DNA of 64,000 nt from a virus. Each line of letters starts with the position of its first letter. Within the stretch, counting starts at the first letter, position 1. This document shows, piece after piece, positions 1 to 42,974 of this stretch. The stretch spans positions 2,650 through 66,649 of IMG/VR virus record IMGVR_UViG_3300032224_001411. The stretch is one strand, 5' to 3'. The translations under genes were made by a program, and so were the position numbers. Under the pieces are notes generated by a model. That model was not told the origin of the DNA. It ran no database searches and worked only from the letters and a program-made list of their open reading frames with translations.

Positions 1-523
1 CGTGGATTACTTTTCCATCACCGATATAGATTCCGGTATGTGATGCTACCGAGTAACCCCGGTAGTAGTATGCAACAATATCACCTGGGACTGGATCATT
101 GACAAAATGACCCCGTACAGATTGAGCTGCTGCACTATGAGGAAGACGTACTCCCATTTGTTTGTACGTCCATGCAACAAGACCAGAGCAGTCCCAACCG
201 GCGGGAGTAGATCCGGAGAATGCATACCATGTTCGGCCTACAGTTCTCTCGAGTCTAGTTAGGACTTTCTTCATCTTGCTTGCGTTCTTCTGCTCTAAGC
301 GAGCAATTTTCCTATCATGTTGCTCAGCAGCTATTCTCGCTGCCTCGCTTTCTTGAAGGGCTTGATACTCTTCGGGACTCAATAAGAGATCGATGAGATC
401 TGTTTGCTGACTACTAGAGTCAGCTGCGTATGTTACTTCAGGTTTTACTATAGATAGTGCCGTGCTGCTACATGCTGTAAACAACAATGACATTCCCATA
501 GCCGTAGTTACAAACCTTTTCAT
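1..523 (-). CDS. NlpC/P60 family cell-wall peptidase with N-terminal signal-like segment (3' end outside window)
   Basis: Manual translation MKRFVTTAMGMSLLFTACS...WYAFSGSTPAGWDCSGLVAWTYKQMG..LPHSAAAQ...PGDIV....HTGIYIGDGKVIH; DCSG and H-x-GIYIG motifs; absent from ORF track because it is open at the edge. Confidence 0.9.
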   Translation of the reverse strand, partial: MKRFVTTAMGMSLLFTACSSTALSIVKPEVTYAADSSSQQTDLIDLLLSPEEYQALQESEAARIAAEQHDRKIARLEQKNASKMKKVLTRLERTVGRTWYAFSGSTPAGWDCSGLVAWTYKQMGVRLPHSAAAQSVRGHFVNDPVPGDIVAYYYRGYSVASHTGIYIGDGKVIH

Positions 524-642
524 TTAGCGCCTACCTTTCCTTTGAGAGTAATTTCTCGGCGTTTATTGTCTGGGTCTCCCTTACGGTTTACCGATCTGGC
601 AAAACGTTGTTCCAGTGTACACTACAAGTCTTAGAAATCAAA

Positions 643-665
643 AAGCCAACCGCGTTGGTTGGCTT
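643..665 (-). terminator. Intrinsic terminator
   Basis: AAGCCAACC-N5-GGTTGGCTT stem followed by a T-run on the minus strand, just after the 682 ORF. Confidence 0.7.
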
Positions 666-681
666 AGAGATCCGAGCAATA

Positions 682-906
682 TTAAAAATTTGACAGATGT
701 GCAGCAATTAGGCGTCTAAACGTAGTAAGTTGGGGCTTTTCTACGTAATTTAAGTACTCATAAGACATCTCAAAAGCGTTTTGAAGCCGTACTAGATCAA
801 GAATAGAAAGTGTTTTGAGATCTAGCTTACCGCGCTCATAGTCTGTATAAAAAGAGTCGATAAAGTCAATTGATGATTGAATCAGGGGAGGAATAGATTT
901 ATCCAT
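682..906 (-). CDS. Hypothetical protein
   Basis: ORF MDKSIPPLIQ..., followed by a terminator. Confidence 0.55.
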   Translation of the reverse strand: MDKSIPPLIQSSIDFIDSFYTDYERGKLDLKTLSILDLVRLQNAFEMSYEYLNYVEKPQLTTFRRLIAAHLSNF

Positions 907-1149
907 ATGTATAGTATACACGGTGGTGCGGGGGGTTGGGGGCGAAGCCCCTCCCGAGCGTAGCGAGGGTCTCCGCGCTGCCCGATCGGAGCGAAGCGAC
1001 GCCGGGCCGCGCGGTTGGGTTTGGGTTTGGTTTTGGGTTTACGGTTTTCTACGGTTTTTACGGTTTTTCCACACGCACGATTCCGCTACGCTGCGCGTTC
1101 GTGTAGCGAAGCGAAACGGATCGCGCCGCGTGGCCGGAATCGAAATAGG

Positions 1150-1183
1150 GCGAGCCCGACAACCTTTCGGCTGTCGGGCTCGC
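1150..1183 (-). terminator. Terminator hairpin (first of a series)
   Basis: GCGAGCCCGACAGCC-GAAA-GGTTGTCGGGCTCGC on the minus strand; similar hairpins follow cassette ORFs at 1689-1722, 2365-2393, 3068-3093, 3744-3767, 4469-4491, 4939-4970, 5647-5671, 6311-6343, 7447-7479, 8129-8154, 9493-9516, 10131-10158, 12021-12056. Confidence 0.8.
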
Positions 1184-1195
1184 GGTGGACACAGA

Positions 1196-1501
1196 CTATT
1201 CCTCGTCTGCCTGTTCGGGGTCGTAGTCAACCATTTTGAGAAAGGCAACATTGTCTCGAGAGCATCCGTAACATTCAAACTCAAATGTCACTTCGCCATC
1301 AAAGTAGCACATCCGACCTTTTTGCTGCTCAAGCACTCCGTAGTCGGGACATCCTTCGTGAGCACATTCCTCGTCACGGAACACTTCGTATGAACCGTTC
1401 GGAATTTCCTCGGGTGGCTCGCCAAAGACAGCAACCTGAATTTCTGCCTCTAACGCTGGGTCGGTGTGTTCCTGCGGTCCGAGCAATTCGGGGTCTATCA
1501 T
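1196..1501 (-). CDS. Hypothetical acidic Cys-containing protein (cassette gene)
   Basis: ORF between promoter 1561 and terminator 1150; RBS GAAAGGA. Confidence 0.75.
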   Translation of the reverse strand: MIDPELLGPQEHTDPALEAEIQVAVFGEPPEEIPNGSYEVFRDEECAHEGCPDYGVLEQQKGRMCYFDGEVTFEFECYGCSRDNVAFLKMVDYDPEQADEE

Positions 1502-1727
1502 GTCCGTTCCTTTCGTTGGGTACTGGTGGACATCTCCATTTTCGCATACAGGACATTCGTTGTCAAATGAGTCGGGCGGGCGCTTTGTTTTTCGAAGTGC
1601 GGGGTTTTGCCGTGCTGCCCGTCGGAGCGAAGCGACGCCGGGCCGCGCGGTTGGGTTTTACGGTTTTCTACGGTCTTACACAAATAGGGCGAGCCCGACA
1701 ACCTTTCGGCTGTCGGGCTCGCAGTGG

Positions 1728-2069
1728 TTACTTGCTGAAGAAACGGCGTTTGCTAATCGCCTCTGGTTCGTAGTAGTAATACTCATCTACCAATTGGACA
1801 CACTCTCGGCAAAGAGTGTGGGGCGGTTCGACATTACGGTACTCACACTCTCCGCAAGGGCGTAGGTGTCGCGTTCCGACATTGTAACCGAACAACGCTG
1901 ATGCCAAGATGACGCTTCCAAAGATGGAAATAATATCAAGGGTTTTGTCGTAGGTCGGGTACATTTCCGCGTAGTGTTTCATACTTACTGCGATTGCTAA
2001 TGCGAATATGTATAAGACTGTCGCAAATGCGGCGCGGTATCCTCTTGATTGGTCACTAGTTCCGAACAT
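1728..2069 (-). CDS. Hypothetical membrane protein with C-terminal CxxC...CxxC motif
   Basis: Two hydrophobic segments, then PCGEC...LCREC; RBS AGGAG. Confidence 0.75.
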   Translation of the reverse strand: MFGTSDQSRGYRAAFATVLYIFALAIAVSMKHYAEMYPTYDKTLDIISIFGSVILASALFGYNVGTRHLRPCGECEYRNVEPPHTLCRECVQLVDEYYYYEPEAISKRRFFSK

Positions 2070-2399
2070 TGTTTTCTCCTATTTCTTTAGGTAACCAGAT
2101 TGGATTATTGCCAACAAATACCTTTCGGCGTTTGGTGGTATTGGTGTTTTTGTGGACATTTTCCACTCCTCTCTGTCATCTCTATCCTCTCAAACTCAAG
2201 GTTCTTTGTCAAATGAGTCGGGCGTGTTTTGTTTTTCGAAGTTGGTTTTGAGGGGGCGCAGCCCCTCCCGAGCGTAGCGAGGGCGGCACTGGCCGGTACG
2301 CGCGAAGCGCGATCCGGCAGTGCGGGTTTTGGGGTTTATGGTTTTACGGTTTTAGACGCGCGAAAGCCCGACAACCTTTTGGGTTGTCGGGCTGTCGGG

Positions 2400-2900
2400 C
2401 TATCCCCAGGTGACTGCCACTCCGCGTGACTTGGCATCCTCACAGACGGTACGAAGGTCGGCAAACTTCTGGTCGAAGTATCCCGCGGGGTGTCCACCTT
2501 CGATGATACGCGGACCGAATGACGGGTGCGAGATATCAACGGCGGGGCGTCCATCGTCCTCGGGCATCAAGGCGATTACCGTAAGTACTCGTCCGAGCAT
2601 GTCCTCGGCTGGTAGTGCGCCGACACAGGCATCCGAGAAATCGTTTTCCGTGGTTAGGATGCCGAGCATCTCCAAGAGCTCCGCGGCGTTTCCGTTGGCG
2701 AGTTGGCACTCGGGCGCAGTTCCCTCAACGGCTGCTCCGTAGGGGTCGCAGTATTCATCGCCACATGCGGCAACGAAACGCTGGGAGTGGTGGACTGCCG
2801 AAGTGTAGTCGGGGAAACGCATTGGCGTGGTCTTGCCGCAGATACAGGTGACGGAGTGCTGGCGCGTGTTCCAGTCAGCGGGAGAGAATGTTACAGACAT
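2400..2900 (-). CDS. Hypothetical protein (cassette gene)
   Basis: Start moved to MSVTFSPADW behind RBS GAAAGGA; the ORF-track extension runs through the promoter. Confidence 0.75.
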   Translation of the reverse strand: MSVTFSPADWNTRQHSVTCICGKTTPMRFPDYTSAVHHSQRFVAACGDEYCDPYGAAVEGTAPECQLANGNAAELLEMLGILTTENDFSDACVGALPAEDMLGRVLTVIALMPEDDGRPAVDISHPSFGPRIIEGGHPAGYFDQKFADLRTVCEDAKSRGVAVTWG

Positions 2901-3104
2901 GGTGAGTTCCTTTCGGTTGTTGCGGGTAGATATCTCAATTCTGGCAGACGAAACTATCTCTGTCAAATCGCGGCAGGGCGGGGGTTTGTTTTTCTTGGGT
3001 TGGGTTAGGGGTTCTCCGCGTAGCGGGGGTTTTGTTTTTGGGTTTACGGTTTTACCACGCGCCAAAAAGCCCCAGCGCGTTAGCGCCGGGGCTTTCAGTT
3101 GAGG

Positions 3105-3287
3105 CTACTTGGTGCGTATTGAGTAGTAGCCTTTGGATTTGAGAGCGCGAACATACTCGCGTCCTCGGTGGTTCAAGCGTGGTCGGTCTTTCAAGAGATA
3201 CCGCATATTTATTACCAACAGCGTGGTTGCGATACCCGTCAAGAAACTCACGATAAATCCGAGAATGATTAGCGTGTTATTGTCCAC
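3105..3287 (-). CDS. Small single-TM membrane protein
   Basis: Hydrophobic N-terminus, basic tail; RBS GAAAGGA. Confidence 0.65.
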   Translation of the reverse strand: MDNNTLIILGFIVSFLTGIATTLLVINMRYLLKDRPRLNHRGREYVRALKSKGYYSIRTK

Positions 3288-3344
3288 GATAGTCCTTTCG
3301 TCTTTTGGGTGGGCAGTTTTTGACGTACCCAGGTCTGGGAATGG

Positions 3345-3566
3345 CTAGATAACAACCATTTTGGTATCAAACTTGATACCGCGCTGACGAAGTTCCGTCA
3401 GGACATCGAGTGCTTGGTACTCACTCAGGTAGACAAACTTACCTTTTGTGAGTATCGTGCGCCAGCGTGACGGCGAACCATTGGAGATTGCCTTCAACTG
3501 CTTCGCTTCGATTTCCAGCAACCAAGCGGTGTGCTTGGCATTGGTGAAGTTACGGAGAATTACCAT
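3345..3566 (-). CDS. Hypothetical protein
   Basis: ORF downstream of promoter 3640. Confidence 0.65.
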   Translation of the reverse strand: MVILRNFTNAKHTAWLLEIEAKQLKAISNGSPSRWRTILTKGKFVYLSEYQALDVLTELRQRGIKFDTKMVVI

Positions 3567-3775
3567 ACTTCATTTCCTCTCGATTTTGAGGTTTCCCCTT
3601 TCGGGCTGATACTTCAATAATCTCATATAAAAACAATTATGTCAAGTAAGACAGGCGGGCTGGTTTTTGTTTTTAGTAGTTTGGTTTTCCTCCGCGCAGC
3701 GGGGGGTTTCAAGGTTTTGGTTTTACGGTTTTACCGCACACCAAGCCCGACCCTTTCGGGTCGGGCTGGCGTTGG

Positions 3776-3970
3776 TTAGATAGTAATTGGTTCGTTGTTG
3801 ATTTTTCCAGTAGCGCAAGCAAGGAGATATTCCGTAACCATTTTTCTTGCGTTATCAACGACAATAAAGTTTGCGCCTATTCCCTCACCAAAAATACCTT
3901 CTTCGGTAATTGCTGTTGTGATAAGCGAGTGCGCTAGTTTCAGTATTTCATAATCTGATACTATTTCCAT
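3776..3970 (-). CDS. Hypothetical protein
   Basis: RBS GAGAGGA; followed by terminator 3744-3767. Confidence 0.7.
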   Translation of the reverse strand: MEIVSDYEILKLAHSLITTAITEEGIFGEGIGANFIVVDNARKMVTEYLLACATGKINNEPITI

Positions 3971-4054
3971 TATTTCCTCTCGGTTGGGTTGTTAGTCAGT
4001 TTTGCGACTTGACTAGGTCGGGTTGGTCACTCGGTGACGCTGAAGAAGACTACG

Positions 4055-4162
4055 CTAATCTTGTTCTTCGTCTTGTTTTCCACAAACTACGCACTCTCTC
4101 AGATGAGGCTCTCCACACTCATCGCAGGTTAGCCAGTGATTCCATTCGTGCTTGTGTCCCAT
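4055..4162 (-). CDS. 35-aa Zn-ribbon microprotein
   Basis: MGHKHEWNHWLTCDECGEPHLRECVVCGKQDEEQD; start overlaps the upstream stop (TAATG). Confidence 0.6.
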   Translation of the reverse strand: MGHKHEWNHWLTCDECGEPHLRECVVCGKQDEEQD

Positions 4163-4293
4163 TAGTCTTCCTCTTCGATTAGTTGGACAATGCTTGCGAT
4201 ATCTCCGACCTCTTCGAGTACCACGCTCAATCCTTCAGCGTCAATATCAGGGTCATCAACTCTCATAATGATTTGGAAAAAAGGCACTTCCAT
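4162..4293 (-). CDS. Small acidic protein
   Basis: Start moved downstream of promoter 4351 and its leader hairpin. Confidence 0.6.
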   Translation of the reverse strand: MEVPFFQIIMRVDDPDIDAEGLSVVLEEVGDIASIVQLIEEED

Positions 4294-4504
4294 TCCTTTC
4301 GTTTTATCGGGTTGTTCCGATACCCTAATACTGTCAGATTTCCGCACCTAAGTCAAGTGAGGTGGCGGGGGGTTTTGTTTTTATTTGATTTTTGGGTTTG
4401 GGGTTCCACCGCGCAGCGGGGTTTTGGGTTTTCAAGGTTTTGGGTTTTACGGTTTTACCGCACACCAAACCCCCACCCTTTCGGGTAGGGGCTCGGCGTT
4501 GCGG

Positions 4505-4777
4505 TCACTCGGTAACTCCAACATATCGAGCATAAATGGTAGCGCGACCTCTGCCCAGCCCATTGGCTCGTGATACTGCCTCGAAAGAGCCAGCAGGGGT
4601 AAACCCTTTGACTTGACCTCGTCGGATAAATATAGCCATATTGCCTTGCCCATCGCGCCTAACGATTGCCCACTTCCCTGGGTTTTGTCGGAGTACCTTT
4701 GCGATATCAACATACACTCCTTTTGGATAGGCTCTTGATTTCGCAGGAGGTGGCTCTTCCCATTCGATTTCTTCCAT
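4505..4777 (-). CDS. Hypothetical protein (phage-type small basic domain)
   Basis: IEWEEPP...IAKVLRQNPGKWA...FEAVSR...IYARYVG; has its own promoter and terminator. Confidence 0.75.
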   Translation of the reverse strand: MEEIEWEEPPPAKSRAYPKGVYVDIAKVLRQNPGKWAIVRRDGQGNMAIFIRRGQVKGFTPAGSFEAVSRANGLGRGRATIYARYVGVTE

Positions 4778-4980
4778 GGTGTTCCTTTCTGTTGTTATAA
4801 CACTATTCTGTCAGATATTCGCATATAAGTCAAATGGCGGGCGGGGGTTTGTTTTTCTTTGATTTTTGGGTTTGGGGGTTTCTCCGCGCAGCGGGGTTTT
4901 CAGGGTTTTGGTTTTACGGTTTTCCGCGCAGAAATAGGGACTGCCCCAACCCTTTCGGGTCGGGGCAGTCGGTGAGTGGA

Positions 4981-5331
4981 TTAGGACGGCGAGCCAGCGT
5001 GGAGAATGTTGTCAACCAATTCCGCAACCTGCTCGTCAGTCAGTCCGAGAGTTTCACCCTCATCATCCGCGCCACCCGTGATGATAGCGTTTCCGACGAT
5101 AATGTCGATACCCGAACCGAATGCCGAAGTGAACAATTTAGTTGCGTAATCGTTCACAGGAAGTCCGTCCATCTTGCCTTCCTCGTTCACCCAGAGCGTC
5201 AGACCGCTTGGAAGCGTGACCGCTTCAATCATTCCGCCGACCGCACGAGAGAGCGTCGCGTACGACACAAACTCGTTCGTGTCCTCCTCAACCTGGATTG
5301 TGTTGTTTGTTTTGAGTACCAGAGCCTTCAC
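4981..5331 (-). CDS. DUF3846-like protein
   Basis: VGGMIEAV...LWVNEEGK..GLPVN..AT...DIIVGNAIITG pattern typical of DUF3846. Confidence 0.75.
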   Translation of the reverse strand: MKALVLKTNNTIQVEEDTNEFVSYATLSRAVGGMIEAVTLPSGLTLWVNEEGKMDGLPVNDYATKLFTSAFGSGIDIIVGNAIITGGADDEGETLGLTDEQVAELVDNILHAGSPS

Positions 5332-5676
5332 TTTCGTTCCTTCCATTTTTGTCGGATTGTTCCGATACTCTAATACTGCCATAAGACGGGCATCGAGTCA
5401 AGTGAGAGGGGGCGGGGGGTTTGTTTTTTCTTTGATTTTTTGATTTTCACCGCGTAGCGGTGGGTTTCCGCCGAGCTGAGTATCTCTTCGATGCCGTGCG
5501 AGAAGGATTCTCCGCGAAGCGCACCCGTAGGGGCGTAGCCCCGAAGGGCACCGCATAGGTTCGAGCGAAGCGAGATCCAATGCGGGGGGTTTTCAAGGTT
5601 TTGGGTTTATGGTTTTTACGGTTTTTACGATTTTAGGCGCGAGAAATCCCCTACCCTTTCGGGTAGGGGACTCGGG

Positions 5677-6114
5677 TCACTCGTAGTTGACTACGAGAGG
5701 CATTGCGGTCTGCCACAGCCAGAGATTGCTGTCAAGACGGTCACCGAAAATTCGTACCCAATCGGCTAGGTCAACCCATTCGTCGGTGGCGAATGTTGCG
5801 AGCATATCCTTGTGGATTTCGACCGGTCGGGCTTGGCTCATTCCGCCATTCGCGTAAAGTGGAACGGAAACAATACGGCTATCCGCATCACTCTGCCAAC
5901 CGACTCCCTCTGTTCCGATAATGGCTACTCGGGGATTTCCCCAAGGGTCTTTCTCAGAAAGTTCGGTGAACACCAATGGCTCGACTATACAATCGTCAAG
6001 ACCAGTAAACTGCCCGTAAGTCAGTTCGAGGATTTTGTGAATGTGTTTGGTCAACCGTTCGCTGTCAATCACTCGCGCTCGATAGCCTTTGGTGCGTTTT
6101 TCATACCTGTCCAC
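5677..6114 (-). CDS. Hypothetical protein (cassette gene)
   Basis: GTG start behind RBS CGGAG; has its own promoter and terminator. Confidence 0.7.
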   Translation of the reverse strand: MDRYEKRTKGYRARVIDSERLTKHIHKILELTYGQFTGLDDCIVEPLVFTELSEKDPWGNPRVAIIGTEGVGWQSDADSRIVSVPLYANGGMSQARPVEIHKDMLATFATDEWVDLADWVRIFGDRLDSNLWLWQTAMPLVVNYE

Positions 6115-6348
6115 GATTTCTCCGTTTCGTGTTTTGGTCGGGTTGTTCCGACATCTAAATACTCTCATCTCTAAGGAACATTGTCAAGTGCGGCGGGCGG
6201 GGGGTTTGTTTTTTCGATGTTTGGGTTTTCGCTCCTGCCGACCTGAGCGCAGCGAAGATCGGCCGGGGGCGGGGTTCACGGTTTTGGGTTTTACGGTTTT
6301 CCACAAACGCCAAATACCCAGACCACCTGGGTCTGGGTATTTGGGTTG

Positions 6349-6483
6349 TCACTCTCCGTTTTCGCACCAACCACAGAGATAATCTCCGCCATAAGGATTG
6401 CCGATGAATGTTCCGTGCTTACAATAGAAATCTGGAACGTTCAGGTCATCTTCGTCAAAGAGTGGGTCGCTACTGGTGGTCAC
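6349..6483 (-). CDS. 44-aa Cys/His microprotein
   Basis: MTTSSDPLFDEDDLNVPDFYCKHGTFIGNPYGGDYLCGWCENGE; start overlaps the upstream stop (GTGA). Confidence 0.6.
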   Translation of the reverse strand: MTTSSDPLFDEDDLNVPDFYCKHGTFIGNPYGGDYLCGWCENGE

Positions 6484-6683
6484 TTTACCGTCACCCATTC
6501 CATTGCGGTACGGAGTAAGTGGTCGTAATCACCTGCGGTGCTTTCGGTGAAGTAGGCATCAACTTCCGACTTCTCAACACCTGCTCGTTTGAGTGCTTTC
6601 TGGACTGTGCCAAGAATGGTAAAGGCGTTTCCGTCAAGTCCAGTCAGTTGGACTACGACTTCGGGATATTTGGGTTCAGACAT
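6480..6683 (-). CDS. Small conserved-looking hypothetical protein
   Basis: VQLTGLDGNAFTILG...AGDYDHLL, a pattern recalled from phage/plasmid small proteins. Confidence 0.75.
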   Translation of the reverse strand: MSEPKYPEVVVQLTGLDGNAFTILGTVQKALKRAGVEKSEVDAYFTESTAGDYDHLLRTAMEWVTVK

Positions 6684-6944
6684 TATTTCTCCATTTCTTT
6701 GTCTGTCGGATTGTTCCGATACCTCAATACTCGCATAGTTCACATTTTTTGTCAAGTGAGGGGCGGGAGGATTTGTTTTTCTGGGTTTGCTTTGGGGTTA
6801 GGGGCGCAGCCCCTCACCGCGCAGCGGTCTCCGCGTTGCTCCGGTGCGCGAAGCGCAACCGGGCCACGCGGGTTTTACGGTTTTTACGGTTTTACCCCGT
6901 GGGGAGTCAGTTTTGCGACTTGACTAGGTCGGTAGGGCTTCTAC

Positions 6945-7070
6945 TTAGTTCCAGTAATTGGCTTCGATTTCAGCATAAATTGCCTCTTGTTCCGCTTGGT
7001 ACTGTTCTTCAGTCATTGAACAGTCGCTAGGCGTTTCGTGTCCACAACAAGGAAAGTCTTCACACGCCAT
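6945..7070 (-). CDS. 41-aa Cys-rich acidic microprotein (CEDFPCCGH)
   Basis: MACEDFPCCGHETPSDCSMTEEQYQAEQEAIYAEIEANYWN; coupled by TGATG. Confidence 0.6.
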   Translation of the reverse strand: MACEDFPCCGHETPSDCSMTEEQYQAEQEAIYAEIEANYWN

Positions 7071-7249
7071 CAGTTTTTGTCTTCCACAAAGTATCCGATG
7101 ACGACTTCTTCATCTGTTGATGACATCTTGTTGATAATCCGCAACACTTCCGCGTTTTGCGGTTCATCGGGATTGGCAACAATTTCGTCAATTCGTTCGG
7201 AATTGAACAGACTGTCCAAGTCCTTTGGGTTGTTCCAGTCGAATGACAT
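7070..7249 (-). CDS. 59-aa acidic hypothetical protein
   Basis: MSFDWNNPKDLDSLFNSERIDEIV...; RBS CGGAG; below the ORF-track cutoff. Confidence 0.65.
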   Translation of the reverse strand: MSFDWNNPKDLDSLFNSERIDEIVANPDEPQNAEVLRIINKMSSTDEEVVIGYFVEDKN

Positions 7250-7484
7250 TATTTCTCCGTTTCTGTCTGTGGCTTGGGAGTTCCCTTGCCTATATCCAGT
7301 CTTTCACCTATCCGCACGAATGTCAAGTAGGGGGTGGGCGGGGGTTTATTTTTCGCAGTTGGGGTTAGGGGCGCAGCCCCTCACCGCGCAGCGGTTCACC
7401 CGAGCGTAGCGAGGGGCTTTTTGGTTTTTACGGTTTTGCCTGCGGGCGACTGCCCACAACCTTTCGGCTATGGGCAGTCGGCGG

Positions 7485-7898
7485 TTACTCCTCCCGAGTG
7501 TCGATTACTACAACAAACGGTGCGCCGAGTTCATCGTGCGATGAACGAACGACAGTCAATTCTTTGTCGTCAAGAGTGAAACGAAGTATCCAAGACGAAT
7601 TGATTGAGAGAGTATCAACCAAGTCTTTCGCTGAAACGCTGGCGTATCCTGAAACTTTGTTCCAATTCATTGCCTCGCTAGAAACGATAATTCGGCTATC
7701 ACGGTCGGCGTTGTTACGCGCCAGCCATTCGTCAAGGACAAACTCATCGAAGACTGCGAGTTCTTCTTCGTAACATTCGTGGCAGTAGTCGCTGGGAATG
7801 GGGTCGCCATTCTCGTCAACCATCTCCTCGCCTGTTTCTTCGTCAAACTTCGTACAAACGCAGTCGTTTGTCAGAGTGAATGTCTGTTTCTCGGTCAC
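7485..7898 (-). CDS. Hypothetical acidic protein
   Basis: GTG start behind AAGGAG; has its own promoter and terminator. Confidence 0.7.
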   Translation of the reverse strand: MTEKQTFTLTNDCVCTKFDEETGEEMVDENGDPIPSDYCHECYEEELAVFDEFVLDEWLARNNADRDSRIIVSSEAMNWNKVSGYASVSAKDLVDTLSINSSWILRFTLDDKELTVVRSSHDELGAPFVVVIDTREE

Positions 7899-8165
7899 GG
7901 TATTCTCCTTTGTGAGATTGTTGATTTGCCTCACATACTAACTCTATAATAAACGGAACATTTAGTCAAGTCAGGGTCGGGGCGGGGTTTGTTTTTTCTT
8001 TGAGGGTTTTAGGGGGCGTAGCCCCCGTCACCCGAAGGGTCTCCGTGCTGTCCGACGCGCGTAGCGCGATCGGCCGCACGGCAGTTTTGATTTTGGTTTT
8101 ATGGTTTTTATGGTTTTAGACGCGCCAACGCGCCTACCCTTTTGGATAGGCGCGAGGCGAGAGGA

Positions 8166-8480
8166 CTACGCGGTGCGAATGTAGTCGTAGGGCGTTACGC
8201 GGAGAGTTTCGGCGTAAGCGACAGGAAACTTCTCTTGTAACATTTTACCGTCAAACGAGGAGTTTTTGCTGGACACGAGAGAGAAAGCCTTTGTACCGTT
8301 CACAGTCGCAACGGTGGCAGTTCCGAGTGCTTCTCGCAGAATTGCTTCTGCGGTAGCCTTGCGCTCTTTTGCCGACTTTTCATCTGCTTTCGCCTGAATG
8401 AAGTCTGCGAGTGCCTGACGGACTTTCTTGTTTTGAGGTTTGATTTCGACAACCTCGGTGGTTTCGGCGTTGTTAGCCAT
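8166..8480 (-). CDS. Hypothetical coiled-coil protein, paralog of 13965-14303
   Basis: Shares REALG.AT..T.NG...FPVAY..T.RVT.YD.I with the 13965 ORF. Confidence 0.8.
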   Translation of the reverse strand: MANNAETTEVVEIKPQNKKVRQALADFIQAKADEKSAKERKATAEAILREALGTATVATVNGTKAFSLVSSKNSSFDGKMLQEKFPVAYAETLRVTPYDYIRTA

Positions 8481-8832
8481 TTCTTTCTCCTTTTGTGGAT
8501 TGTTGATTTGCCCACATAAGAAACATTACGCGGTATCCGCACGAATGTCAAACGGCGAGTGGGGCGCGTTTTGTTTTTTCTTTGATTTTCTAAATAAGAA
8601 ATCCCCTCTCTAACCACCAGTTTCATAAAGTATGGAACTAATATACTTTTGACCAGAAACTTCACCAGCATCTTTCCAGACACTTTGAGTTAGAGAGGGG
8701 ATTTAGGTGGTTTAGCCACGCTTGCGCTACCATATGTGGTCGTAAATTGGTTAGTCCTTAGTAGAGAATAACCTTTACTCGTGTACGCTCTTTGTCGGCG
8801 TACTGACCCATAGGCATACTACTAATATCCTA

Positions 8833-8906
8833 TGGTGGTGTGGGCTATGAGGTTTCGAACCTCGGACTATCACGGTAGTCCACGCCTAGTCTTTCGACCT
8901 AGCCCC
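8833..8906 (-). ncRNA. tRNA-like RNA (non-canonical)
   Basis: GGGCTA/TAGCCC acceptor-like stem, GTC-GAAA-GAC arm, GGACTA-CCGTGA-TAGTCC arm, GAGG-TTCGAAA-CCTC T-arm, 3' ACACCACCA. Confidence 0.55.
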
Positions 8907-8917
8907 TTTCCTGCTAT

Positions 8918-9220
8918 TTAGTTTTGTTCGGCAACCAGACTATTACAATAATCGCAGAAGTGACCCTTGCTCTCAACTTCCTCATCATCGCAGTTGGCGC
9001 ACATTGGAATGTCCTCGAAGTATTCAGGAACAAAGAAGTCCTTTGCGCCATTGGGGTACGCCTCGGCGCAGTCACCGCATAACCAGAAGTAGGTCAGTTC
9101 CTCAACCTTTTTGGTGTCGGTCACTCCGTATGTTGGGTTTGTTCCGATAAGACCTATTGGGTCACCATCGAACCAAGCGGAACAACCATCGCAGTTGATA
9201 TCACTCCAAGATAATGCCAT
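8918..9220 (-). CDS. Cys-rich (four CxxC) hypothetical protein
   Basis: Start moved to MALSWSDINCDGC behind AAGGAG. Confidence 0.7.
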   Translation of the reverse strand: MALSWSDINCDGCSAWFDGDPIGLIGTNPTYGVTDTKKVEELTYFWLCGDCAEAYPNGAKDFFVPEYFEDIPMCANCDDEEVESKGHFCDYCNSLVAEQN

Positions 9221-9523
9221 TTCCGTTCTCCTTTTTTGTTGGGTGAGTAGTTGTTTCCACAGACGCACATACTCAGGTGCGAGAAGTCTTTTAGCGAATG
9301 GAGAAAACGCACCTATCCGACTTCCTAGATAGGATTAGGGCGGTAACTGATGACAACGGTTACATATGTAAATCTATCAGATAGTGAGCCGACTTGTCAA
9401 ATCAGGGGGTCGGGGGCTTTTGTTTTTCGATGTGGGTTTTCTCCGCGCAAAGCGCGGTCACGGTTTTGATTTTTACGGTTTTACACGGCAAAGCCCCACT
9501 CCCGAAAGAGTGGGGCGCAACGG

Positions 9524-9925
9524 CTATCCGTAGACGATTTCGCCGTAGACCATTTGCTGTATCACACAGTCAGAGGTCATAGCGTCAAAGTCAAACTCGC
9601 TGTTGCCGTAGAACGATTGAGCCATTGAGTGACTGGCGTAGGTGTCCTGACTTAGCAGTTCCGCGTAAGCCTCTACCATCTTGTGAATACCAACCTCAAC
9701 GGTAATCGTCTTGTCCTCGTCTTTTGGGTCAAGAGCCGTGATACGAGCCAAGCCGACTTCTTCCCAAGACGAGCCGTTGAGAAACTCCACCGACTTAATG
9801 TGGTTACCAAAGAACTCCCAGCCACCACCGAACACCGAACTCCAAAGTCCACCAGCCTCAACCTTGACTGGAATAATTACCAGTTCCGAGTTGCGTGACA
9901 CTCGTGCTTCTGTTTCCTGTTCCAA
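9524..9925 (-). CDS. Hypothetical phage protein ending ...DCVIQQMVYGEIVYG
   Basis: Has its own promoter and terminator; C-terminus resembles a recurrent phage family (recalled, not searched). Confidence 0.75.
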   Translation of the reverse strand: MEQETEARVSRNSELVIIPVKVEAGGLWSSVFGGGWEFFGNHIKSVEFLNGSSWEEVGLARITALDPKDEDKTITVEVGIHKMVEAYAELLSQDTYASHSMAQSFYGNSEFDFDAMTSDCVIQQMVYGEIVYG

Positions 9926-10167
9926 TTTCTTGCCTTTCCGTTTCAGCGTTATTGCCTTGATATAAATCTATACCCTCGCAGCGGTTCAGTCAAGTCAGGG
10001 TGGTCGGGGCGGTTTTGTTTTTGCGAAGCAAAGGGCGAAGCCCTCACCGCGAAGCGGCCACTCGAGGGGCGAAGCTCCGAGGGGTTTTTGATTTTACGGT
10101 TTTTACGGTTTTACGGTTTTCCAACGCGCAAACGCGCCCCCCTTTCGGAGAGCGCGTTGCGGTTGGT

Positions 10168-10581
10168 TCAGGCTTCCTCAACCTCAAGGCTATCTGTCTG
10201 GTAGCCGTAGGCGAAGTCCATATCGCTGTCTGTGGTTTCGATACTTGCTTCGAAGTAGTCCTCGTAGTCGGAAACATCTTTTCCGAGCGGAATGGTGAGT
10301 GTTCCGCGCCAAGTGGCGGTCACTACGATTTCGACCTCTTGGGTGAGTTCGACACCAAGCGCGTCACATAGTTCGACAATGAAATCATCTTCACCGTCTA
10401 CTTCACCGTTGGCGATTGCGGTTTTGAGAATGTCACTTGCCTTGTCCACCATTTCTCGGTAGAAGTCCAATTTGCTGACTGCGAACTTACGGGCTTCCTC
10501 AGTTGCGATAAGCCTTGCCTTGACTTCTTTCAGAACATCAGTTGCTTCTGTGAGCGTGTTGCTCAATTCGGTGTTGTCCAC
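10168..10581 (-). CDS. Hypothetical acidic protein
   Basis: GTG start after the leader hairpin and CGGAG. Confidence 0.7.
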   Translation of the reverse strand: MDNTELSNTLTEATDVLKEVKARLIATEEARKFAVSKLDFYREMVDKASDILKTAIANGEVDGEDDFIVELCDALGVELTQEVEIVVTATWRGTLTIPLGKDVSDYEDYFEASIETTDSDMDFAYGYQTDSLEVEEA

Positions 10582-10728
10582 TTTTTTGTTCTCCGTTTCT
10601 GTCGGATTGTTCCGACACTCAATAGTCCCACGAATGACCGCCAATGTCAAGTCAAGGTGGGGGGCGATTTGTTTTTTATTTGATTTTTGAGTTGAGCAGT
10701 TTTAGACTTACTCAGGTCTGGGAGAAAC

Positions 10729-11079
10729 TTAGTTCTCGTCTTTGAGGTTGTTGATTAGGTCAGCAAACACGCTGTCGGTTTCTGCTTTCTCGTTTACCTC
10801 GTACCGTTCTAGGATTTTGGTTAGTAACCCACCTAGTTCGTCTTTGACATTTATGGTCGAATGAATGAGTGCTTCACGCCCCATACGCTTTACCCTGCCG
10901 TCTGCTTCTTTGTCGAAGTCTACTTCGGGGTCAAACGCGAGGTGGATACCCATAGCCAGAGAACCAGCCATAACAAAGAGGGCAAAGATTTCGCGGTCAG
11001 TCAAAGCCATCTTGCGAAGTTCGTCTTTGTAGTCAAGGTCATTGAGAGGGTTGTATTCCTCGTCACCTGATTTTGGCAT
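10729..11079 (-). CDS. Hypothetical protein
   Basis: ORF with GGGGG RBS. Confidence 0.65.
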   Translation of the reverse strand: MPKSGDEEYNPLNDLDYKDELRKMALTDREIFALFVMAGSLAMGIHLAFDPEVDFDKEADGRVKRMGREALIHSTINVKDELGGLLTKILERYEVNEKAETDSVFADLINNLKDEN

Positions 11080-11090
11080 TTTCGTACCCC

Positions 11091-11255
11091 CTAGTAGTTC
11101 TCTGCTACGAAATCGGACAGTTCTTTGAGGTTCGCACCGCTACTAATCAAAGCCAGCAGTTCCTCGTTTTCTGACAGTAGTTCGACAGGAACGAAGTGAA
11201 GTCCTGCGAGGATTGAGAGTGCGCCAACCGCACCCCCGAAATAATCTTTTACCAT
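11091..11255 (-). CDS. Small hypothetical protein
   Basis: Start moved to MVKDYFGG behind AGGAG. Confidence 0.6.
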   Translation of the reverse strand: MVKDYFGGAVGALSILAGLHFVPVELLSENEELLALISSGANLKELSDFVAENY

Positions 11256-11351
11256 TTTTTCTCCTATCGAGGATTGTTGTTTTGCCCCCGATATAATAAG
11301 AATACGCCCCCACCAAACCGAAGTCAAGTGGGGGCGTTTTTTTTTTCTTTG

Positions 11352-11588
11352 CTATTCAGCCCAAATACTGCTGTAGCAAGGGTCGCACATTCCTGAAATG
11401 AACCGTTCGCGTTCATAATTGGGTAAATCGGGAAGAATGTCTTGTATCATCAAGATACCTTGATTTACTCCGTACAGTTGTGCGCCGTCGATAGTTGCGG
11501 TCATTCCTGCTAAACCGCAATCGGGGCAGTCGGGAGAAGTAATTTCATACTTATCCTCGTTGAGTTTTTTGAGGTGTTGGATACGCAT
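11352..11588 (-). CDS. Zn-binding hypothetical protein
   Basis: CPDC...IQDILPDL...ERERFISGMCDPC. Confidence 0.7.
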   Translation of the reverse strand: MRIQHLKKLNEDKYEITSPDCPDCGLAGMTATIDGAQLYGVNQGILMIQDILPDLPNYERERFISGMCDPCYSSIWAE

Positions 11589-11836
11589 TAGTTTGCATCT
11601 ATCCAAGGTTCAGCAGGGTCGTATCCTGCTTCTTGGTCTGTTGAAACTTCGTGTGTAATACCGCAGTTGGCGCACTCAACTTCCCAGTCACCCCAATCGT
11701 TGGTAACTACGGTCTGCGCTTCATTGTGCTTGTTGTCGCAGTCTGGGTTTTCGCACTCAAACGCTTCATACTCAAACTCGTCAGCGTAAATGCCTGAACC
11801 CATCATTGACCCTTCGGGGTAGTTGTAACCAGCCAC
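11588..11836 (-). CDS. Acidic Zn-ribbon hypothetical protein
   Basis: CENPDC...CANC; RBS GAAAGGA. Confidence 0.7.
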   Translation of the reverse strand: MAGYNYPEGSMMGSGIYADEFEYEAFECENPDCDNKHNEAQTVVTNDWGDWEVECANCGITHEVSTDQEAGYDPAEPWIDAN

Positions 11837-12126
11837 TTTATTTCCTTTCGTTAGAAGTTATATTTAGTATCTCATTTATAGCAACCAATGTCAAGTCAAG
11901 GGGTGTCGGGGCGGTTTCTTTTTTCAAAGAAACGGTTTTCACCGCGTAGCGGTCACCGCGAAGCGGGGTTTTGATTTTAGGGTTTTACGGTTTTTACGGT
12001 TTTTGCCCCCAGAAATGGGGAAAGCCCCTACAAGCCTAACACTTGTAGGGGACTTTCCAGCCGAGGAAAGTAGGGGAAACCTCGGCTACTGGTGGTGGGG
12101 AAACGGAAATAAACCCACCACCAAGA

Positions 12127-12516
12127 TTAGACTACTTCGGGTTCCTCAACCTTTGACGGTGCTACTATCCGAGTTGCGACAGCAGTTGCCCAGAACAAGT
12201 CGTGACCGATAACCTCTGCTTCGATTTCGACATTTGTACCGACCCTATCATCAGTTGCCCAGTCGCGCACACGCAACCGACCTGAAACGATAATACGGTC
12301 ACCTTTTGAGAGCGAGGGAACGCAGTTGATAGCAAGTTGCTTGTATGCGGTAATGGTGTACCAGTTGGTCGAACTGTCCACCCATTTCAGAGTTGTTTTG
12401 TCGAAACGGCGTTGTGGTGAAGCGAGTCGGAACGAGGTGATAGCAAGCCCCTCGCTGGTTACAATGTGGCGCGGTGTTGTGGCGATAAGCCCTGTGACTG
12501 TGATTATGTCAGACAC
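12127..12516 (-). CDS. ssb: Single-stranded DNA-binding protein (actinobacterial type, short tail)
   Basis: ITVTG.IAT.P...FRLAS..RRFD...W....TNWYT...LA.N...SL.KGDRIIV.GRL..R.W....VEIEA..IGHDL OB-fold pattern. Confidence 0.9.
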   Translation of the reverse strand: MSDIITVTGLIATTPRHIVTSEGLAITSFRLASPQRRFDKTTLKWVDSSTNWYTITAYKQLAINCVPSLSKGDRIIVSGRLRVRDWATDDRVGTNVEIEAEVIGHDLFWATAVATRIVAPSKVEEPEVV

Positions 12517-12549
12517 TATTTCTCCTTTGTTTAGGTTGGTATGATAAAT

Positions 12550-12825
12550 CTATCGGGTGAGAGATATATTGTCAAGTCGGGCGGGGCTGTTTTGTTTTTC
12601 GTTGGAAGTTTGTAGTTTCCACCCTGCCAGCGTAACAATGTCATAGACAGTCACACCAAGACCGTCTGCGATACTTTCTAGCACTTCGCTAGAAACTTCG
12701 TTGTGACCTCGTTCGATTTCCGAGAGGTGAGCGATAGAAACATACTTACTCACATCAACGAGGTTCTTGCGCTTGTCCGTTCGGAGTTCGCGCAAGACCT
12801 CGCCAAGAGCCTCACGATACAGCAT
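12550..12825 (-). CDS. XRE-family HTH regulator, ClgR-like
   Basis: REALGEVLRELR...L.DVS..VS..HLSEIERG..EVSSEVL..I.D.LGV closely follows the actinobacterial ClgR pattern. Confidence 0.75.
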   Translation of the reverse strand: MLYREALGEVLRELRTDKRKNLVDVSKYVSIAHLSEIERGHNEVSSEVLESIADGLGVTVYDIVTLAGWKLQTSNEKQNSPARLDNISLTR

Positions 12826-17522: not shown

Positions 17523-17653
17523 TATTTTCACCTTTCGTTGTCGTTGCTTCGATTGTATGTCCAGACCCCCACTCTTGTCAAATGAGAGAGTGGGGCAGGT
17601 AGCCACCATAACTACCTGCCCCGACCTGCTAGGGGTACAGAAAGGACAAGACC

Positions 17654-32550: not shown

Positions 32551-32551
32551 G

Positions 32552-42901: not shown

Positions 42902-42974
42902 TTCGAACCTCCCGGGACAGATAGAATAGATGTAAAGAGATTACCAGTATATGGCTTTTATGTCAAATTGATTG

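What the first reader, a model, noticed from the sequence alone, without database searches (positions are those of the whole stretch)
939..11966. Strand-specific ssDNA mini-hairpins (C-GNA-G triloops, tandem G.A pairs) on the template strand upstream of cassette promoters
Seen: on the + strand, nearly every spacer carries GC-GNA-GC hairpins. Examples are GGGGC-GAA-GCCCC (939-951), CCC-GA-GC-GTA-GC-GA-GGG (953-969), CG-GA-GC-GAA-GC-GA-CG (about 987 and 1623), CCGC-GTA-GCGG (3016, 5450, 11942), CCGC-GCA-GCGG (3692, 4409, 4884, 6817) and CCGC-GAA-GCGG (10047, 11956). Stems vary while the G-N-A loop and C:G closing pair are kept. Known: d(GCGNAGC) hairpins and tandem sheared G.A pairs are exceptionally stable in DNA, and their reverse complements are not. 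N4 virion-RNAP promoters use such template-strand triloop hairpins, and integron attC and HUH targets are read as folded ssDNA. The neighbouring terminators instead have GAAA tetraloops on the RNA strand. Inference: the + strand is selected to fold as ssDNA or cruciform, for example as recombination, priming or transcription-activation signals. An SSB gene sits at the right end of this block.
Basis: partly seen in the sequence, partly recalled or inferred. Interest (0 to 1): 0.85.

Follow-up and report, generated by a model that had tools for sequence, protein, structure and literature searches.

The report
Template-strand DNA mini-hairpins before phage promoters
An uncultured freshwater phage carries about 34 copies of an unusually stable DNA hairpin motif, all on one strand just upstream of its early-gene promoters, which suggests that folded DNA rather than plain sequence acts as a control signal there.

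Summary
GCGNAGC occurs 31 times on the + strand and 2 times on the - strand in 4,613 spacer bases; shuffles give about 1. The window is part of a 66.6-kb phage record. Bases 908-12126 hold about 20 one-gene cassettes on the - strand. Each has a terminator, phased A-tracts, GC hairpins, an A-tract, TTGACA-17-nAnnnT and the gene.

Stems vary but stay paired. Loop G and A are kept and the middle base drifts. Seven hairpins carry tandem G.A pairs that exist only on the + strand. A relative of 85-91% identity keeps the hairpins under purifying selection. More distant relatives with the same cassette design have one such cluster, in the last spacer of the array.

My best reading (0.4) is that these are template-strand DNA hairpins that extrude as cruciforms and act in early transcription. 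They share the physical class of phage N4 promoters but fail N4's defining tests. No function is shown. This is a new variant of a known kind.

The parts
908..12126 (-). Array of about 20 one-gene cassettes of small proteins, mostly of unknown function. Each has a terminator, phased A-tracts, GC hairpins, an A-tract, TTGACA-17-nAnnnT, often a 5'UTR hairpin, a Shine-Dalgarno site and the gene.
938..1016 (+). Spacer S1 cluster: GGGGGC-GAA-GCCCCT (938-952), CCC-GA-GC-GTA-GC-GA-GGG (953-969) and a roughly 42-nt long hairpin (975-1016) with apex CG-GA-GC-GAA-GC-GA-CG. This spacer has no TTGACA; a -10-like TATACT lies 6 nt before the ATG at 906.
   Evidence: It is the homologous position of the single cluster in G001 and G002.
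1078..1142 (+). About 65-nt imperfect hairpin with a GC-GAA-GC apex, lying between the T-tracts and the terminator of S1.
   Evidence: The close relative also has it in its S2.
1609..1650 (+). S2 long hairpin. Its outer stem CCGTGC/GCGCGG has a T.G pair, and its apex is CG-GA-GC-GAA-GC-GA-CG.
2252..2327 (+). S3 cluster: GGGGGC-GCA-GCCCCT, CCC-GA-GC-GTA-GC-GA-GGG and a long hairpin with CGCGC-GAA-GCGCG.
3013..3029 (+). S4 single hairpin TCTCCGC-GTA-GCGGGGG (2 G.T pairs), followed by TTTTGTTTTT.
3688..3706 (+). S6 single hairpin, CCGC-GCA-GCGG core.
4409..4419 (+). S8 single hairpin CCGC-GCA-GCGG.
4882..4896 (+). S9 single hairpin CTCCGC-GCA-GCGGGG. The middle base is C here, T in L038 and L100, and A in L068.
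5446..5584 (+). S10 cluster of 6 hairpins, including TC-GA-GC-GAA-GC-GA-GA inside CCGCAT/ATGCGG.
6231..6271 (+). S11 long hairpin with apex CT-GA-GC-GCA-GC-GA-AG. An outer T.G pair here is C-G in the relative.
6800..6871 (+). S12 cluster: AGGGGC-GCA-GCCCCT, ACCGC-GCA-GCGGT and a long hairpin with TGCGC-GAA-GCGCA.
7367..7415 (+). S13 cluster of three hairpins.
8012..8080 (+). S14 cluster: GGGGGC-GTA-GCCCCC, ACCC-GAA-GGGT and a long hairpin with CGCGC-GTA-GCGCG.
9443..9457 (+). S16 variant CCGCGC-AAA-GCGCGG. The close relative has GAA here.
10018..10083 (+). S17 cluster of four hairpins. The last is CTC-GA-GGGGC-GAA-GCTCC-GA-GGG; its G.T pair is G-C in the relative.
11941..11966 (+). S20 pair: ACCGC-GTA-GCGGT and CCGC-GAA-GCGG.
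682..906 (-). Last gene of the array (74 aa, no family). Its positional homologues in G001 and G002 are the only genes preceded by a hairpin cluster there.
12127..12516 (-). SSB gene at the upstream (right) edge of the array.
4828..4833 (-). Example of the -35 hexamer (TTGACT). Loop centres lie 33-167 nt beyond the -35 hexamers, with no helical phasing.

Best explanation
The GC-rich palindromes are DNA-level structural elements. They are mini-hairpins of the d(C-GNA-G) class, often extended by tandem sheared G.A pairs, and they lie on the template (+) strand. They belong to the upstream module of the phage's host-type early promoters, about 70 to 200 bp before the start site.

The mechanism is inferred, not shown. 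Negative supercoiling, from gyrase or from RNA polymerases firing at the strong promoter just downstream, would drive these short palindromes to extrude as cruciforms. Short palindromes can do this at physiological superhelicity only because of the C:G-closed GNA loop, as shown for phage N4. The template-strand arm is the stable, SSB-resistant one. The extruded state would then either tune the neighbouring promoter as a torsional buffer or insulator between tandem cassettes, or be read by a strand-specific factor that is still unknown.

Ancestrally there was one cluster, in front of the last early gene, which has a weak promoter lacking a good -35. In this lineage the cluster spread with the promoter module to most cassettes.
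For: - Excess and strand bias: 31 against 2, with about 1 expected.
- Structure rather than sequence is kept. Stems vary and co-vary. On seven long hairpins 74.7% of cells pair against 23-51% with slid partners, and the covariation score is 0.255 against 0.108, reached by 0 of 500 shuffles.
- Purifying selection against an 85-91% relative: stems differ at 2.5%, loop G plus A at 1 of 62, other spacer positions at 8.3%, and the middle base at 25.8%, which is not below the 14.7% of third codon positions. The one AAA loop in the window is GAA in the relative.
- Folding of the + strand specifically: all 7 tandem mismatches listed (8 with one more read by eye) are GA/GA on +. The GA-capped form recurs with different outer stems here and in G001 and G002. 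C-G, T.G and T-A occupy one stem position in S1, S2 and S14.
- DNA rather than RNA: the RNA hairpins of the same spacers (terminators) use GAAA tetraloops, and none of the GC hairpins does. From passages of PMC13037366, GCGNAGC melts at 70-76 C while r(GCGAAAGC) melts at 39 C, and mini-hairpins bind SSB poorly.
- N4 precedent, from passages of PMC4496689: the C:G closing pair and the loop 5'G and 3'A are what allow extrusion at sigma -0.035 with Mg2+, and the template-strand loop resists single-strand probes. In the N4 genome GCGNAGC lies on the template strand before gp1, gp2 and gp15.
- Place: always between the distal and proximal A-tracts of a promoter module, and never in the coding sequence of the array.
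Against: - No experiment of any kind bears on this, and no RNA run was found.
- About 30 cassettes in G001, with the same architecture and TTGACT promoters, work without hairpins. The hairpins are therefore not needed for such promoters.
- Five spacers in the window also lack them.
- Loop centres show no helical phasing with the -35 hexamer (resultant length 0.06-0.24). That argues against a face-of-helix contact with RNA polymerase.
- Nearest-neighbour DNA parameters give no difference between strands (-220 against -218 kcal/mol over 15 segments). The claimed asymmetry therefore rests on published oligonucleotide data, not on my computation.
- Pure extrusion does not need the GNA loop on one particular strand. 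The uniform orientation may simply be inherited through duplication.
- A single ancestral cluster per genome fits an origin of replication equally well.
Confidence: 0.4

Rival explanations
1. The hairpins are N4-type promoters. A hairpin-specific RNA polymerase, packed in the virion or made early, starts transcription a fixed distance from each template-strand hairpin. The cassettes would then have two promoter types.
For: - The heptamer, strand and position upstream of early genes match N4.
- The ancestral cluster precedes a gene with no good -35. In the window the nearest loop is 38 nt from its ATG, and N4's heptamers lie 24-61 nt from their start codons.
- Tandem arrays of GCGNAGC hairpins upstream of genes occur in IMG/VR contigs that are probably N4-like, such as L162, and L123 whose TerL is phrog_38 like N4 gp68.
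- The genomes held are only 39% and 71% complete.
Against: - The middle base is a pyrimidine in 18 of 31 hairpins, and N4 needs a purine.
- No conserved start base at a fixed distance: G at position 8 after the heptamer in 12 of 31, against 3 of 3 in N4.
- Sixteen spacers already have a TTGACA/T -35 hexamer, 15 of them with an nAnnnT hexamer 17-18 nt on, between the hairpins and the gene.
- No PF00940 match, and no tblastn match to N4 vRNAP even at E 10, in G000, G001, L094, L038, L111 or L014.
- The large ORFs of G001 are tail proteins, RNR, DNA polymerase, a helicase or unknowns.
Confidence: 0.12
2. The hairpins are single-strand initiation signals or an origin. They would mark where the phage's primase-helicase primes on exposed + strand DNA, as in G4 oric or RSF1010 ssiA with RepB'.
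For: - Mini-hairpins lie in G4, St-1 and alpha3 complementary-strand origins and in ssiA, which is read by RepB' (passages of PMC13037366).
- The phage encodes a primase-helicase (54717-57320, phrog_1156, E 7.8e-115) and an SSB.
- Distant relatives have a single cluster per held contig, inside an AT-rich intergenic region.
Against: - In the window, 15 spacers carry hairpins that are each under selection, which is odd for an origin.
- The hairpins are on the transcription-template strand. That is the leading-strand template if forks move with transcription (established reasoning, not tested here).
- The rest of the genome has no such signals.
- No iterons or initiator sites were identified.
Confidence: 0.12
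3. The hairpins act as + strand RNA structures. They would be antisense terminators or insulators that stop transcription running against the cassettes.
For: - On + each cluster is followed by G/T-rich runs. One (3013-3029) meets the terminator scan.
- RNA parameters favour + over - (-404 against -372 kcal/mol).
- G.U pairs and tandem G.A pairs are also stable in RNA (established knowledge).
Against: - Only 1 of 15 clusters passes the simple terminator scan, and terminator-like sites are no more frequent than in shuffles (16 against 17.0).
- No systematic + strand promoter precedes the clusters.
- The phage's own RNA hairpins use GNRA tetraloops, while these never do.
- No Rfam family matches.
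Confidence: 0.1
4. The hairpins are binding sites on duplex DNA for a phage or host regulator, for example one that shuts off early genes, in the manner of the one-orientation repeated sites of some actinophages.
For: - They are repeated and sit in one orientation, in promoter regions, and are lineage-specific. Distant relatives instead have a different, highly uniform AT-rich module, as expected if sites co-evolve with a phage protein.
Against: - A sequence reader does not explain arms that differ in sequence yet stay complementary, or GA/GA mismatches kept with co-varying outer stems.
- The constant core is only C-GNA-G.
- The number and spacing of sites vary widely.
Confidence: 0.1
5. The hairpins are recombination or selfish elements: folded-strand targets of a nuclease or recombinase that shuffles cassettes (like attC or REP), or palindromes that spread on their own.
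For: - Cassette content differs between close relatives, and one long hairpin is replaced by another type (S1).
- Contigs from other lake runs join different spacers (with short flanks).
- The hairpins are on one strand, like attC.
Against: - No PF00589 or PF01797 match in the held parts.
- The cassettes carry their own promoters.
- The hairpins always occupy the same slot of the module and are absent from other intergenic regions.
- Relatives without hairpins have equally modular arrays.
Confidence: 0.07

Closest known systems
Early promoters of coliphage N4 (Schitoviridae) read by the virion RNA polymerase
   Same: The GCGNAGC heptamer is flanked by inverted repeats of variable sequence, lies on the template strand and sits upstream of early genes. 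The C:G closing pair and the loop G and A are the constrained positions. I verified this in the N4 genome at 93, 562 and 4551 and in passages of PMC4496689.
   Different: N4 has 3 hairpins per genome, one per promoter, 24-61 nt from the start codon, with a purine in the loop centre, a fixed start site and no host-type promoter. Here there are 34 hairpins, up to 6 per spacer, and 18 of 31 have a pyrimidine centre. There is no conserved start position, a TTGACA-17-nAnnnT promoter lies downstream, and no such polymerase was found.
d(GCGNAGC) mini-hairpins at single-strand initiation sites (G4, St-1 and alpha3 oric; RSF1010 ssiA)
   Same: The same extraordinarily stable motif occurs in phage or plasmid DNA near initiation sites, and it is SSB-resistant (passages of PMC13037366).
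   Different: Those replicons expose single-stranded DNA as part of their life cycle and have one to three hairpins at an origin. Here a double-stranded phage has an 11-kb array tied to promoters.
Integron attC sites
   Same: A cassette array in which a folded single strand, always the same one, carries imperfect hairpins between genes.
   Different: attC sites follow promoterless genes, have conserved R and L boxes and need IntI. Here the cassettes have their own promoters and terminators, the constant part is a GNA triloop, and no tyrosine recombinase was found in the held parts. The attC features are recalled, not read here.
One-orientation intergenic repeats of actinobacteriophages (stoperators of cluster A, 17-bp palindromes of cluster O)
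   Same: Many copies of a short element in small intergenic regions of an actinophage, tied to promoters.
   Different: Those are fixed sequences bound by a repressor or of unknown role. Here the sequence varies and the fold is kept. These families are recalled from memory; my searches returned no paper on them that I read.

Membership tests
DNA mini-hairpin d(GCGNAGC) / C-GNA-G triloop motif | A G-N-A loop closed by C:G, with the second pair usually G-C. | tested here: met
   There are 31 GCGNAGC and 3 CC-GNA-GG on + in the spacers. GNA makes up 31 of 58 GC-NNN-GC words.
DNA mini-hairpin d(GCGNAGC) / C-GNA-G triloop motif | It actually folds and is unusually stable as DNA, more so than its complement. 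| not testable with these tools
   ViennaRNA DNA parameters give -220 (+) against -218 (-) kcal/mol. To my understanding they hold no bonus for this loop. Melting of oligonucleotides is needed.
N4-type virion-RNAP hairpin promoter | A GC-rich heptamer with flanking inverted repeats on the template strand upstream of early genes. | tested here: met
   for the window, and for N4.
N4-type virion-RNAP hairpin promoter | A purine at the loop centre (-11 A/G). | tested here: not met
   The middle base is A 13, T 9, C 9 and G 0 of 31. The requirement comes from PMC4496689.
N4-type virion-RNAP hairpin promoter | A conserved start (+1, template C) at a fixed distance from the hairpin. | tested here: not met
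   N4 has G at position 8 after the heptamer on the coding strand in 3 of 3. The window has G 12, A 10, C 7 and T 2 of 31.
N4-type virion-RNAP hairpin promoter | A cognate giant T7-like virion RNA polymerase gene. | tested here: inconclusive
   No PF00940 match and no tblastn match to N4 gp50 at E 10. However, the held genomes are 39% and 71% complete, and PF00940 sees N4 gp50 itself only at E 0.007.
N4-type virion-RNAP hairpin promoter | Dependence on gyrase-driven extrusion and SSB. | not testable with these tools
   An SSB gene is adjacent, but that is not a test.
Integron attC / cassette system | A tyrosine recombinase IntI, and promoterless cassettes ending in attC. | tested here: not met
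   No PF00589 match in G000, G001 or G002 (incomplete genomes). The cassettes have their own promoters and terminators.
REP/RAYT or IS200/IS605-type HUH targets | A Y1 (HUH) transposase, and hairpins dispersed in intergenic DNA. | tested here: not met
   No PF01797 match in 5 records (incomplete genomes). The hairpins are confined to one slot of the promoter module.
Single-strand initiation signal / origin | Lies on the strand exposed at the fork, and priming starts next to the hairpin. | not testable with these tools
   A primase-helicase is present. Fork direction is unknown.
Intrinsic terminator (+ strand) | A GC-rich stem followed directly by a T run. | tested here: not met
   The scan flags only 3013-3029 among the 15 clusters. 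In total 16 sites were found against 17.0 in shuffles.

The most novel reading that the evidence does not exclude
A lineage of large freshwater actinophages, unrelated to N4, uses folded template-strand DNA as a regulatory code. Arrays of supercoil-extruded GNA mini-hairpins, many capped by tandem G.A pairs, would be read by an unknown hairpin-specific polymerase or factor. This code would have spread from one ancestral site to nearly every early promoter. The same GA-capped hairpin recurs in many unrelated phage contigs, so hairpin-DNA signals could be far more common in phages than the single N4 example suggests.
Probability: 0.15. Interest if true: 0.85.

Novelty: new variant of a known kind. 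Interest (0 to 1): 0.62.

Why it matters
Proven cases where a folded DNA strand, rather than duplex sequence, carries a regulatory signal in a double-stranded genome are very few. N4 promoters are the textbook case.

This locus offers 34 natural variants of the same fold, together with their evolutionary record: conserved G and A, a free middle base, co-varying stems and strain-to-strain changes. They sit in a simple, portable promoter context that can be cloned and probed directly.

If the hairpins extrude and affect expression, that would show the N4 principle is used outside Schitoviridae and alongside host-type promoters. It would also give a compact, supercoil-sensing part for synthetic biology. 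If they do nothing in such tests, the strong purifying selection on them still needs another explanation, such as priming or nuclease protection.

My five literature searches on the motif, on N4 and on phage intergenic repeats (a sixth, only traced the relative DSL-LC01) found no description of such arrays. The 2026 review of mini-hairpins says natural examples are 'still limited in number'.

Tried and rejected
- G-quadruplex reading of the G/T-rich + strand: there are 0 canonical motifs (loops up to 7) in 900-12126 on either strand. Dropped.
- Known RNA families: no Rfam match worth noting in 1-13000. The two weak rows are far below gathering score.
- Thermodynamic asymmetry by computation: none with DNA parameters. 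Not usable as evidence either way.
- Expression data: no RNA holder was listed for 900-10800.
- Laying contigs of 4 DNA runs: the tables were cut to the best-supported rows and gave nothing usable on hairpin positions. Parts without cover are not interpreted.
- Named relatives: DSL-LC01 (primase 66% identical) has 39 GCGNAGC forward and 50 reverse, against 90 and 55 for the control pattern. Its small groups lie inside CDS near TerL. Pumpernickel has 52 and 61 with no cluster.
- Scans that found no relatives: megablast of 900-12000 against phages, the T-tract pattern (L009-L012 unrelated) and a two-hairpin pattern in viral contigs (0 stretches).
- Background for the GA-capped pair pattern: my control scan was ill chosen. 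I therefore give no enrichment figure and rely on the internal test.
- Contig-end enrichment of such pairs: 9 of 30 whole contigs have the pair within 600 nt of an end. This is weak and may reflect assembly breaks.
- Orientation relative to neighbouring ORFs in 118 IMG/VR loci, with crude ORF calls: upstream on the template strand 34, upstream on the non-template strand 21, downstream antisense 27, downstream sense 12, inside called ORFs 41. This is only a mild lean.
- Chi-like or exonuclease-roadblock idea (AGCGG lies within CCGC-GNA-GCGG): considered from memory only and not tested.
- Supplementary files of papers were not opened.

Full report
What the region is. The window is bases 2650-66649 of a 66,649-base IMG/VR virus record that CheckV rates 39% complete. 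It encodes an SSB, a primase-helicase, ribonucleotide reductase, a collagen-like tail fibre, a tRNA and a tmRNA. By primase similarity its nearest named relatives are large Microbacterium phages (about 50% identity) and the lake phage DSL-LC01 (66%).

Bases 908-12126 hold about 20 one-gene cassettes on the - strand. They encode small proteins that almost all lack a family; the exceptions are DUF3846 and a few PHROGs of unknown function. Read in the sense direction, each spacer has the following parts:
- a terminator, with a C-GAAA-G loop in 8 of them;
- phased A-tracts (AAAACCGTAAAACC);
- the GC-rich palindromes;
- GAAAAACAAA followed by a C-rich block;
- TTGACA/T, 17 nt, nAnnnT;
- in 5 cassettes a conserved 5'UTR hairpin;
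- a strong Shine-Dalgarno site.
Promoter-like sites number 25 against 10.9 in shuffles.

GCGNAGC occurs 31 times on + and 2 times on - in the 4,613 spacer bases, 0 and 2 times in the 6,832 coding bases between them, and 8 and 6 times in the remaining 51,874 bases. In 1000 dinucleotide shuffles of the spacers the mean is 1.07 and the maximum is 5. Three further hairpins are CC-GNA-GG, and one has an AAA loop. Hairpins occur in 14 of 20 spacers, or 15 with the AAA variant. The middle base is A 13, T 9, C 9 and G 0.

Is the fold, and the + strand, what is selected? Four lines of evidence say yes.
- The arms differ between families (GGGGC, CCGC, CGCGC, TGCGC, TTTGC, ACCC, and nested long hairpins of about 42 nt) yet stay complementary. 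On an alignment of seven long hairpins, 74.7% of cells pair against 23-51% when partners are slid. The covariation score is 0.255 against 0.108 in shuffles, reached by 0 of 500. One stem position reads C-G, T.G and T-A in S1, S2 and S14. That path runs through a pair that exists only on +.
- The script lists seven hairpins that carry the cap GA-GC-GNA-GC-GA, with outer stems CCC/GGG, CG/CG, TC/GA and CT/AG. An eighth tandem GA/GA, in the last hairpin of S17 (CTC/GGG around a longer inner stem), is read by eye. All tandem mismatches are 5'-GA/GA-3' on +. On the - strand they would be T/C clashes.
- The metagenome scan brought in a syntenic relative of 85-91% identity (L094 plus L038, one 137-kb contig) and four small contigs. 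Over 14 homologous spacers the two phages differ at 244 of 2927 ordinary spacer positions (8.3%) and at 7 of 283 stem positions. They differ at 1 of 31 loop G, 0 of 31 loop A and 8 of 31 middle bases. The binomial tails are 3.8e-5 for stems, 0.030 for G plus A and 0.0032 for the middle base. Third codon positions of 10 shared genes differ at 14.7%. The middle base is therefore at least as free as a silent site, while G and A are held tighter than second codon positions (4.0%). The window's lone AAA loop is GAA in the relative. One hairpin (4882-4896) has C, T and A as its middle base in three strains. Two G.T pairs in the window are G-C in the relative.
- The RNA hairpins of the same spacers use GNRA tetraloops, whereas none of the GC hairpins does. 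Passages of the 2026 mini-hairpin review give Tm 76, 73, 71 and 70 C for N = A, G, C and T, only 39 C for r(GCGAAAGC), and poor SSB binding.

Caveats on that evidence:
- Generic DNA energy parameters show no difference between strands.
- G.T pairs next to stems are expected at some rate on a G/T-rich strand.
- The clusters share an internal order, so the uniform orientation is probably inherited rather than 31 separate choices.

Where the hairpins came from. Relatives found through SSB (53-60% identity) have the same cassette design. In G001 about 30 spacers share a near-identical AT-rich upstream module, TTGACT promoters and GAAA terminators, and they have no GC hairpins.

Whole-record pattern counts then showed one tight cluster in each of two such records. 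G001 has 5 GCGNAGC at 4165-4237, and G002 has 7 at 2815-2973, again on the template strand. Both clusters lie in the spacer before the last gene of the array. That gene encodes a 73-76-aa protein of no known family and is the positional homologue of window gene 682-906. In all three phages this spacer lacks a good -35 hexamer. In the window a TATACT lies 6 nt before the ATG, which suggests a leaderless message (inference).

The GA cap recurs in those clusters with new outer stems (GCT/AGC, GC/GC, GT/AC, CC/GG). Downstream follow an NlpC/P60 peptidase, an endolysin-like gene and TerL. The likely history is one ancestral cluster at the end of the early array, which spread in the window's lineage with the promoter module to most spacers.

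What it is not.
- N4 itself has exactly three GCGNAGC on the template strand, at 93, 562 and 4551 before gp1, gp2 and gp15, each followed 8 nt later by G.
- The window fails N4's requirements. The loop centre is a pyrimidine in 18 of 31 hairpins. There is no fixed start base (G in 12 of 31). There are up to six hairpins per spacer. Host-type promoters lie between the hairpins and the genes.
- No RNA polymerase was found: no PF00940 match in five records, no tblastn match to N4 gp50 even at E 10, and nothing among the large ORFs of G001. These genomes are incomplete, and PF00940 barely sees N4 gp50 itself.
- No Y1 transposase or tyrosine recombinase was found in the held parts.
- Only one cluster passes a simple + strand terminator scan, and no regular + strand promoter precedes the clusters.
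- Loop centres lie 33-167 nt beyond the -35 hexamer, without helical phasing.

Most likely mechanism. I commit, at about 0.4, to DNA-level hairpins that extrude as small cruciforms under negative supercoiling and act in early transcription.

What is shown:
- the motif;
- its strand;
- its selection;
- its place in promoter modules;
- from the literature, that this exact loop is what lets short palindromes extrude in vivo and resist SSB.

What is inferred:
- that extrusion happens here;
- that it buffers or insulates torsion between tandem strong promoters, or offers a platform to a strand-specific reader;
- that this benefits expression.

The rivals are an N4-like polymerase (0.12), priming signals or an origin (0.12), + strand RNA structures (0.10), a duplex-binding regulator (0.10) and recombination or selfish elements (0.07). 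The remainder is left open.

A wider pattern, followed only partly. Of the 317 caps in those loci, 68 have three or more further Watson-Crick pairs outside the GA/GA, against 6 when the partner is slid by two. Contigs of 28-70% GC are represented.

Some of these loci hold tandem arrays of 5-12 hairpins in intergenic DNA (L123, L162, L159, L135). I scanned neighbouring ORFs in 14 loci, which I chose for many hairpins or for lying near contig ends, so they are not a random sample. Five of them have TerL next to the cluster. Three of those TerL fall in phrog_38, as does N4 gp68, so part of this signal probably comes from N4-like phages. My reversed-word control was flawed, so I give no enrichment figure.

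Verdict. The finding is a real, strongly selected, strand-specific structural DNA motif array. It is closest in kind to N4 promoters and to mini-hairpin initiation sites, but it differs in number, context and rules. Its function is open and directly testable.

Noticed in passing
IMG/VR loci L112-L229 (for example L123 300-500, L162 5588-5710, L159 498-590, L135 1828-1920): The GA-capped mini-hairpin xx-GA-GC-GNA-GC-GA-x'x' with co-varying outer stems recurs in many unrelated viral contigs of 28-70% GC, sometimes as tandem arrays of 5-12 in intergenic DNA. Of 317 caps, 68 have at least 3 outer pairs, against 6 in a slid control. In 5 of 14 loci that I chose to look at, TerL is adjacent. Three of those TerL are phrog_38, like N4 gp68.
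   Followed up: partly
L110 (G001) 4165-4237 and L111 (G002) 2815-2973: Distant relatives with about 30 hairpin-free cassettes have one cluster of 5-7 template-strand GCGNAGC hairpins. It replaces the proximal half of the AT-rich upstream module in the last spacer of the array, before a 73-76-aa gene of unknown function.
   Followed up: yes
window 4308-4320, 5353-5365, 6139-6151, 6707-6719, 10603-10615: A conserved palindrome (on the sense strand TCGGAACAAYCCG) lies just after the -10 in five cassettes. It has 5 exact matches against 0.13 expected. It may be a 5'UTR stem-loop or an operator.
   Followed up: partly
window 3997-4021 and 6908-6932: An identical 25-base element (CAGTTTTGCGACTTGACTAGGTCGG on +) sits in two short gene junctions that lack the usual promoter module. 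Looser look-alikes occur near 3315 and 10697, and the close relative has its own version. It may be a second kind of intergenic signal.
   Followed up: partly
window 8590-8900: The spacer before gene 8166-8480 has no GC hairpin. Instead it holds an AT-rich insert with a long inverted repeat and a tRNA-like piece (a GAGGTTCGAAACCTC arm on the - strand) that ARAGORN does not call. The close relative lacks about 190 nt of it.
   Followed up: no
window 42974-43305 (-) and 32551-32623 (-): The phage record encodes a tmRNA (tag ANAKSAFALAA) and a tRNA-Arg(TCT).
   Followed up: no
window 46514-50929 (+): A 1471-aa collagen-like tail-fibre gene. Its repeats account for the five GCGCAGC words at 47844-48333 outside the array.
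   Followed up: yes
window 11990-12126: Three strong hairpins in a row follow the SSB gene, apparently a triple terminator before the first cassette module.
   Followed up: partly
window 900-12200, contigs of runs X2, X3, X4 and X9: Contigs from other lake metagenomes join different spacers of the array, for example 1136 to 2360 in two runs and 1601 to 7367 in two runs. This suggests cassette gain and loss by recombination between spacers. The flanks are short (28-38 letters) and likeness was set to 80, so the evidence is weak.
   Followed up: no
window 15711-18697 (-): A MoxR-type AAA ATPase (AAA_5) lies next to a 632-aa protein with a weak VWA/CoxE match, downstream of the SSB block.
   Followed up: no
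G000 record start, G001 contig start: The window's record and G001 both end a few hundred bases past the TerL stop codon (165 and 686 nt). This could mark a physical genome end or a recurrent assembly break. The close relative's 137-kb contig runs on.
   Followed up: no
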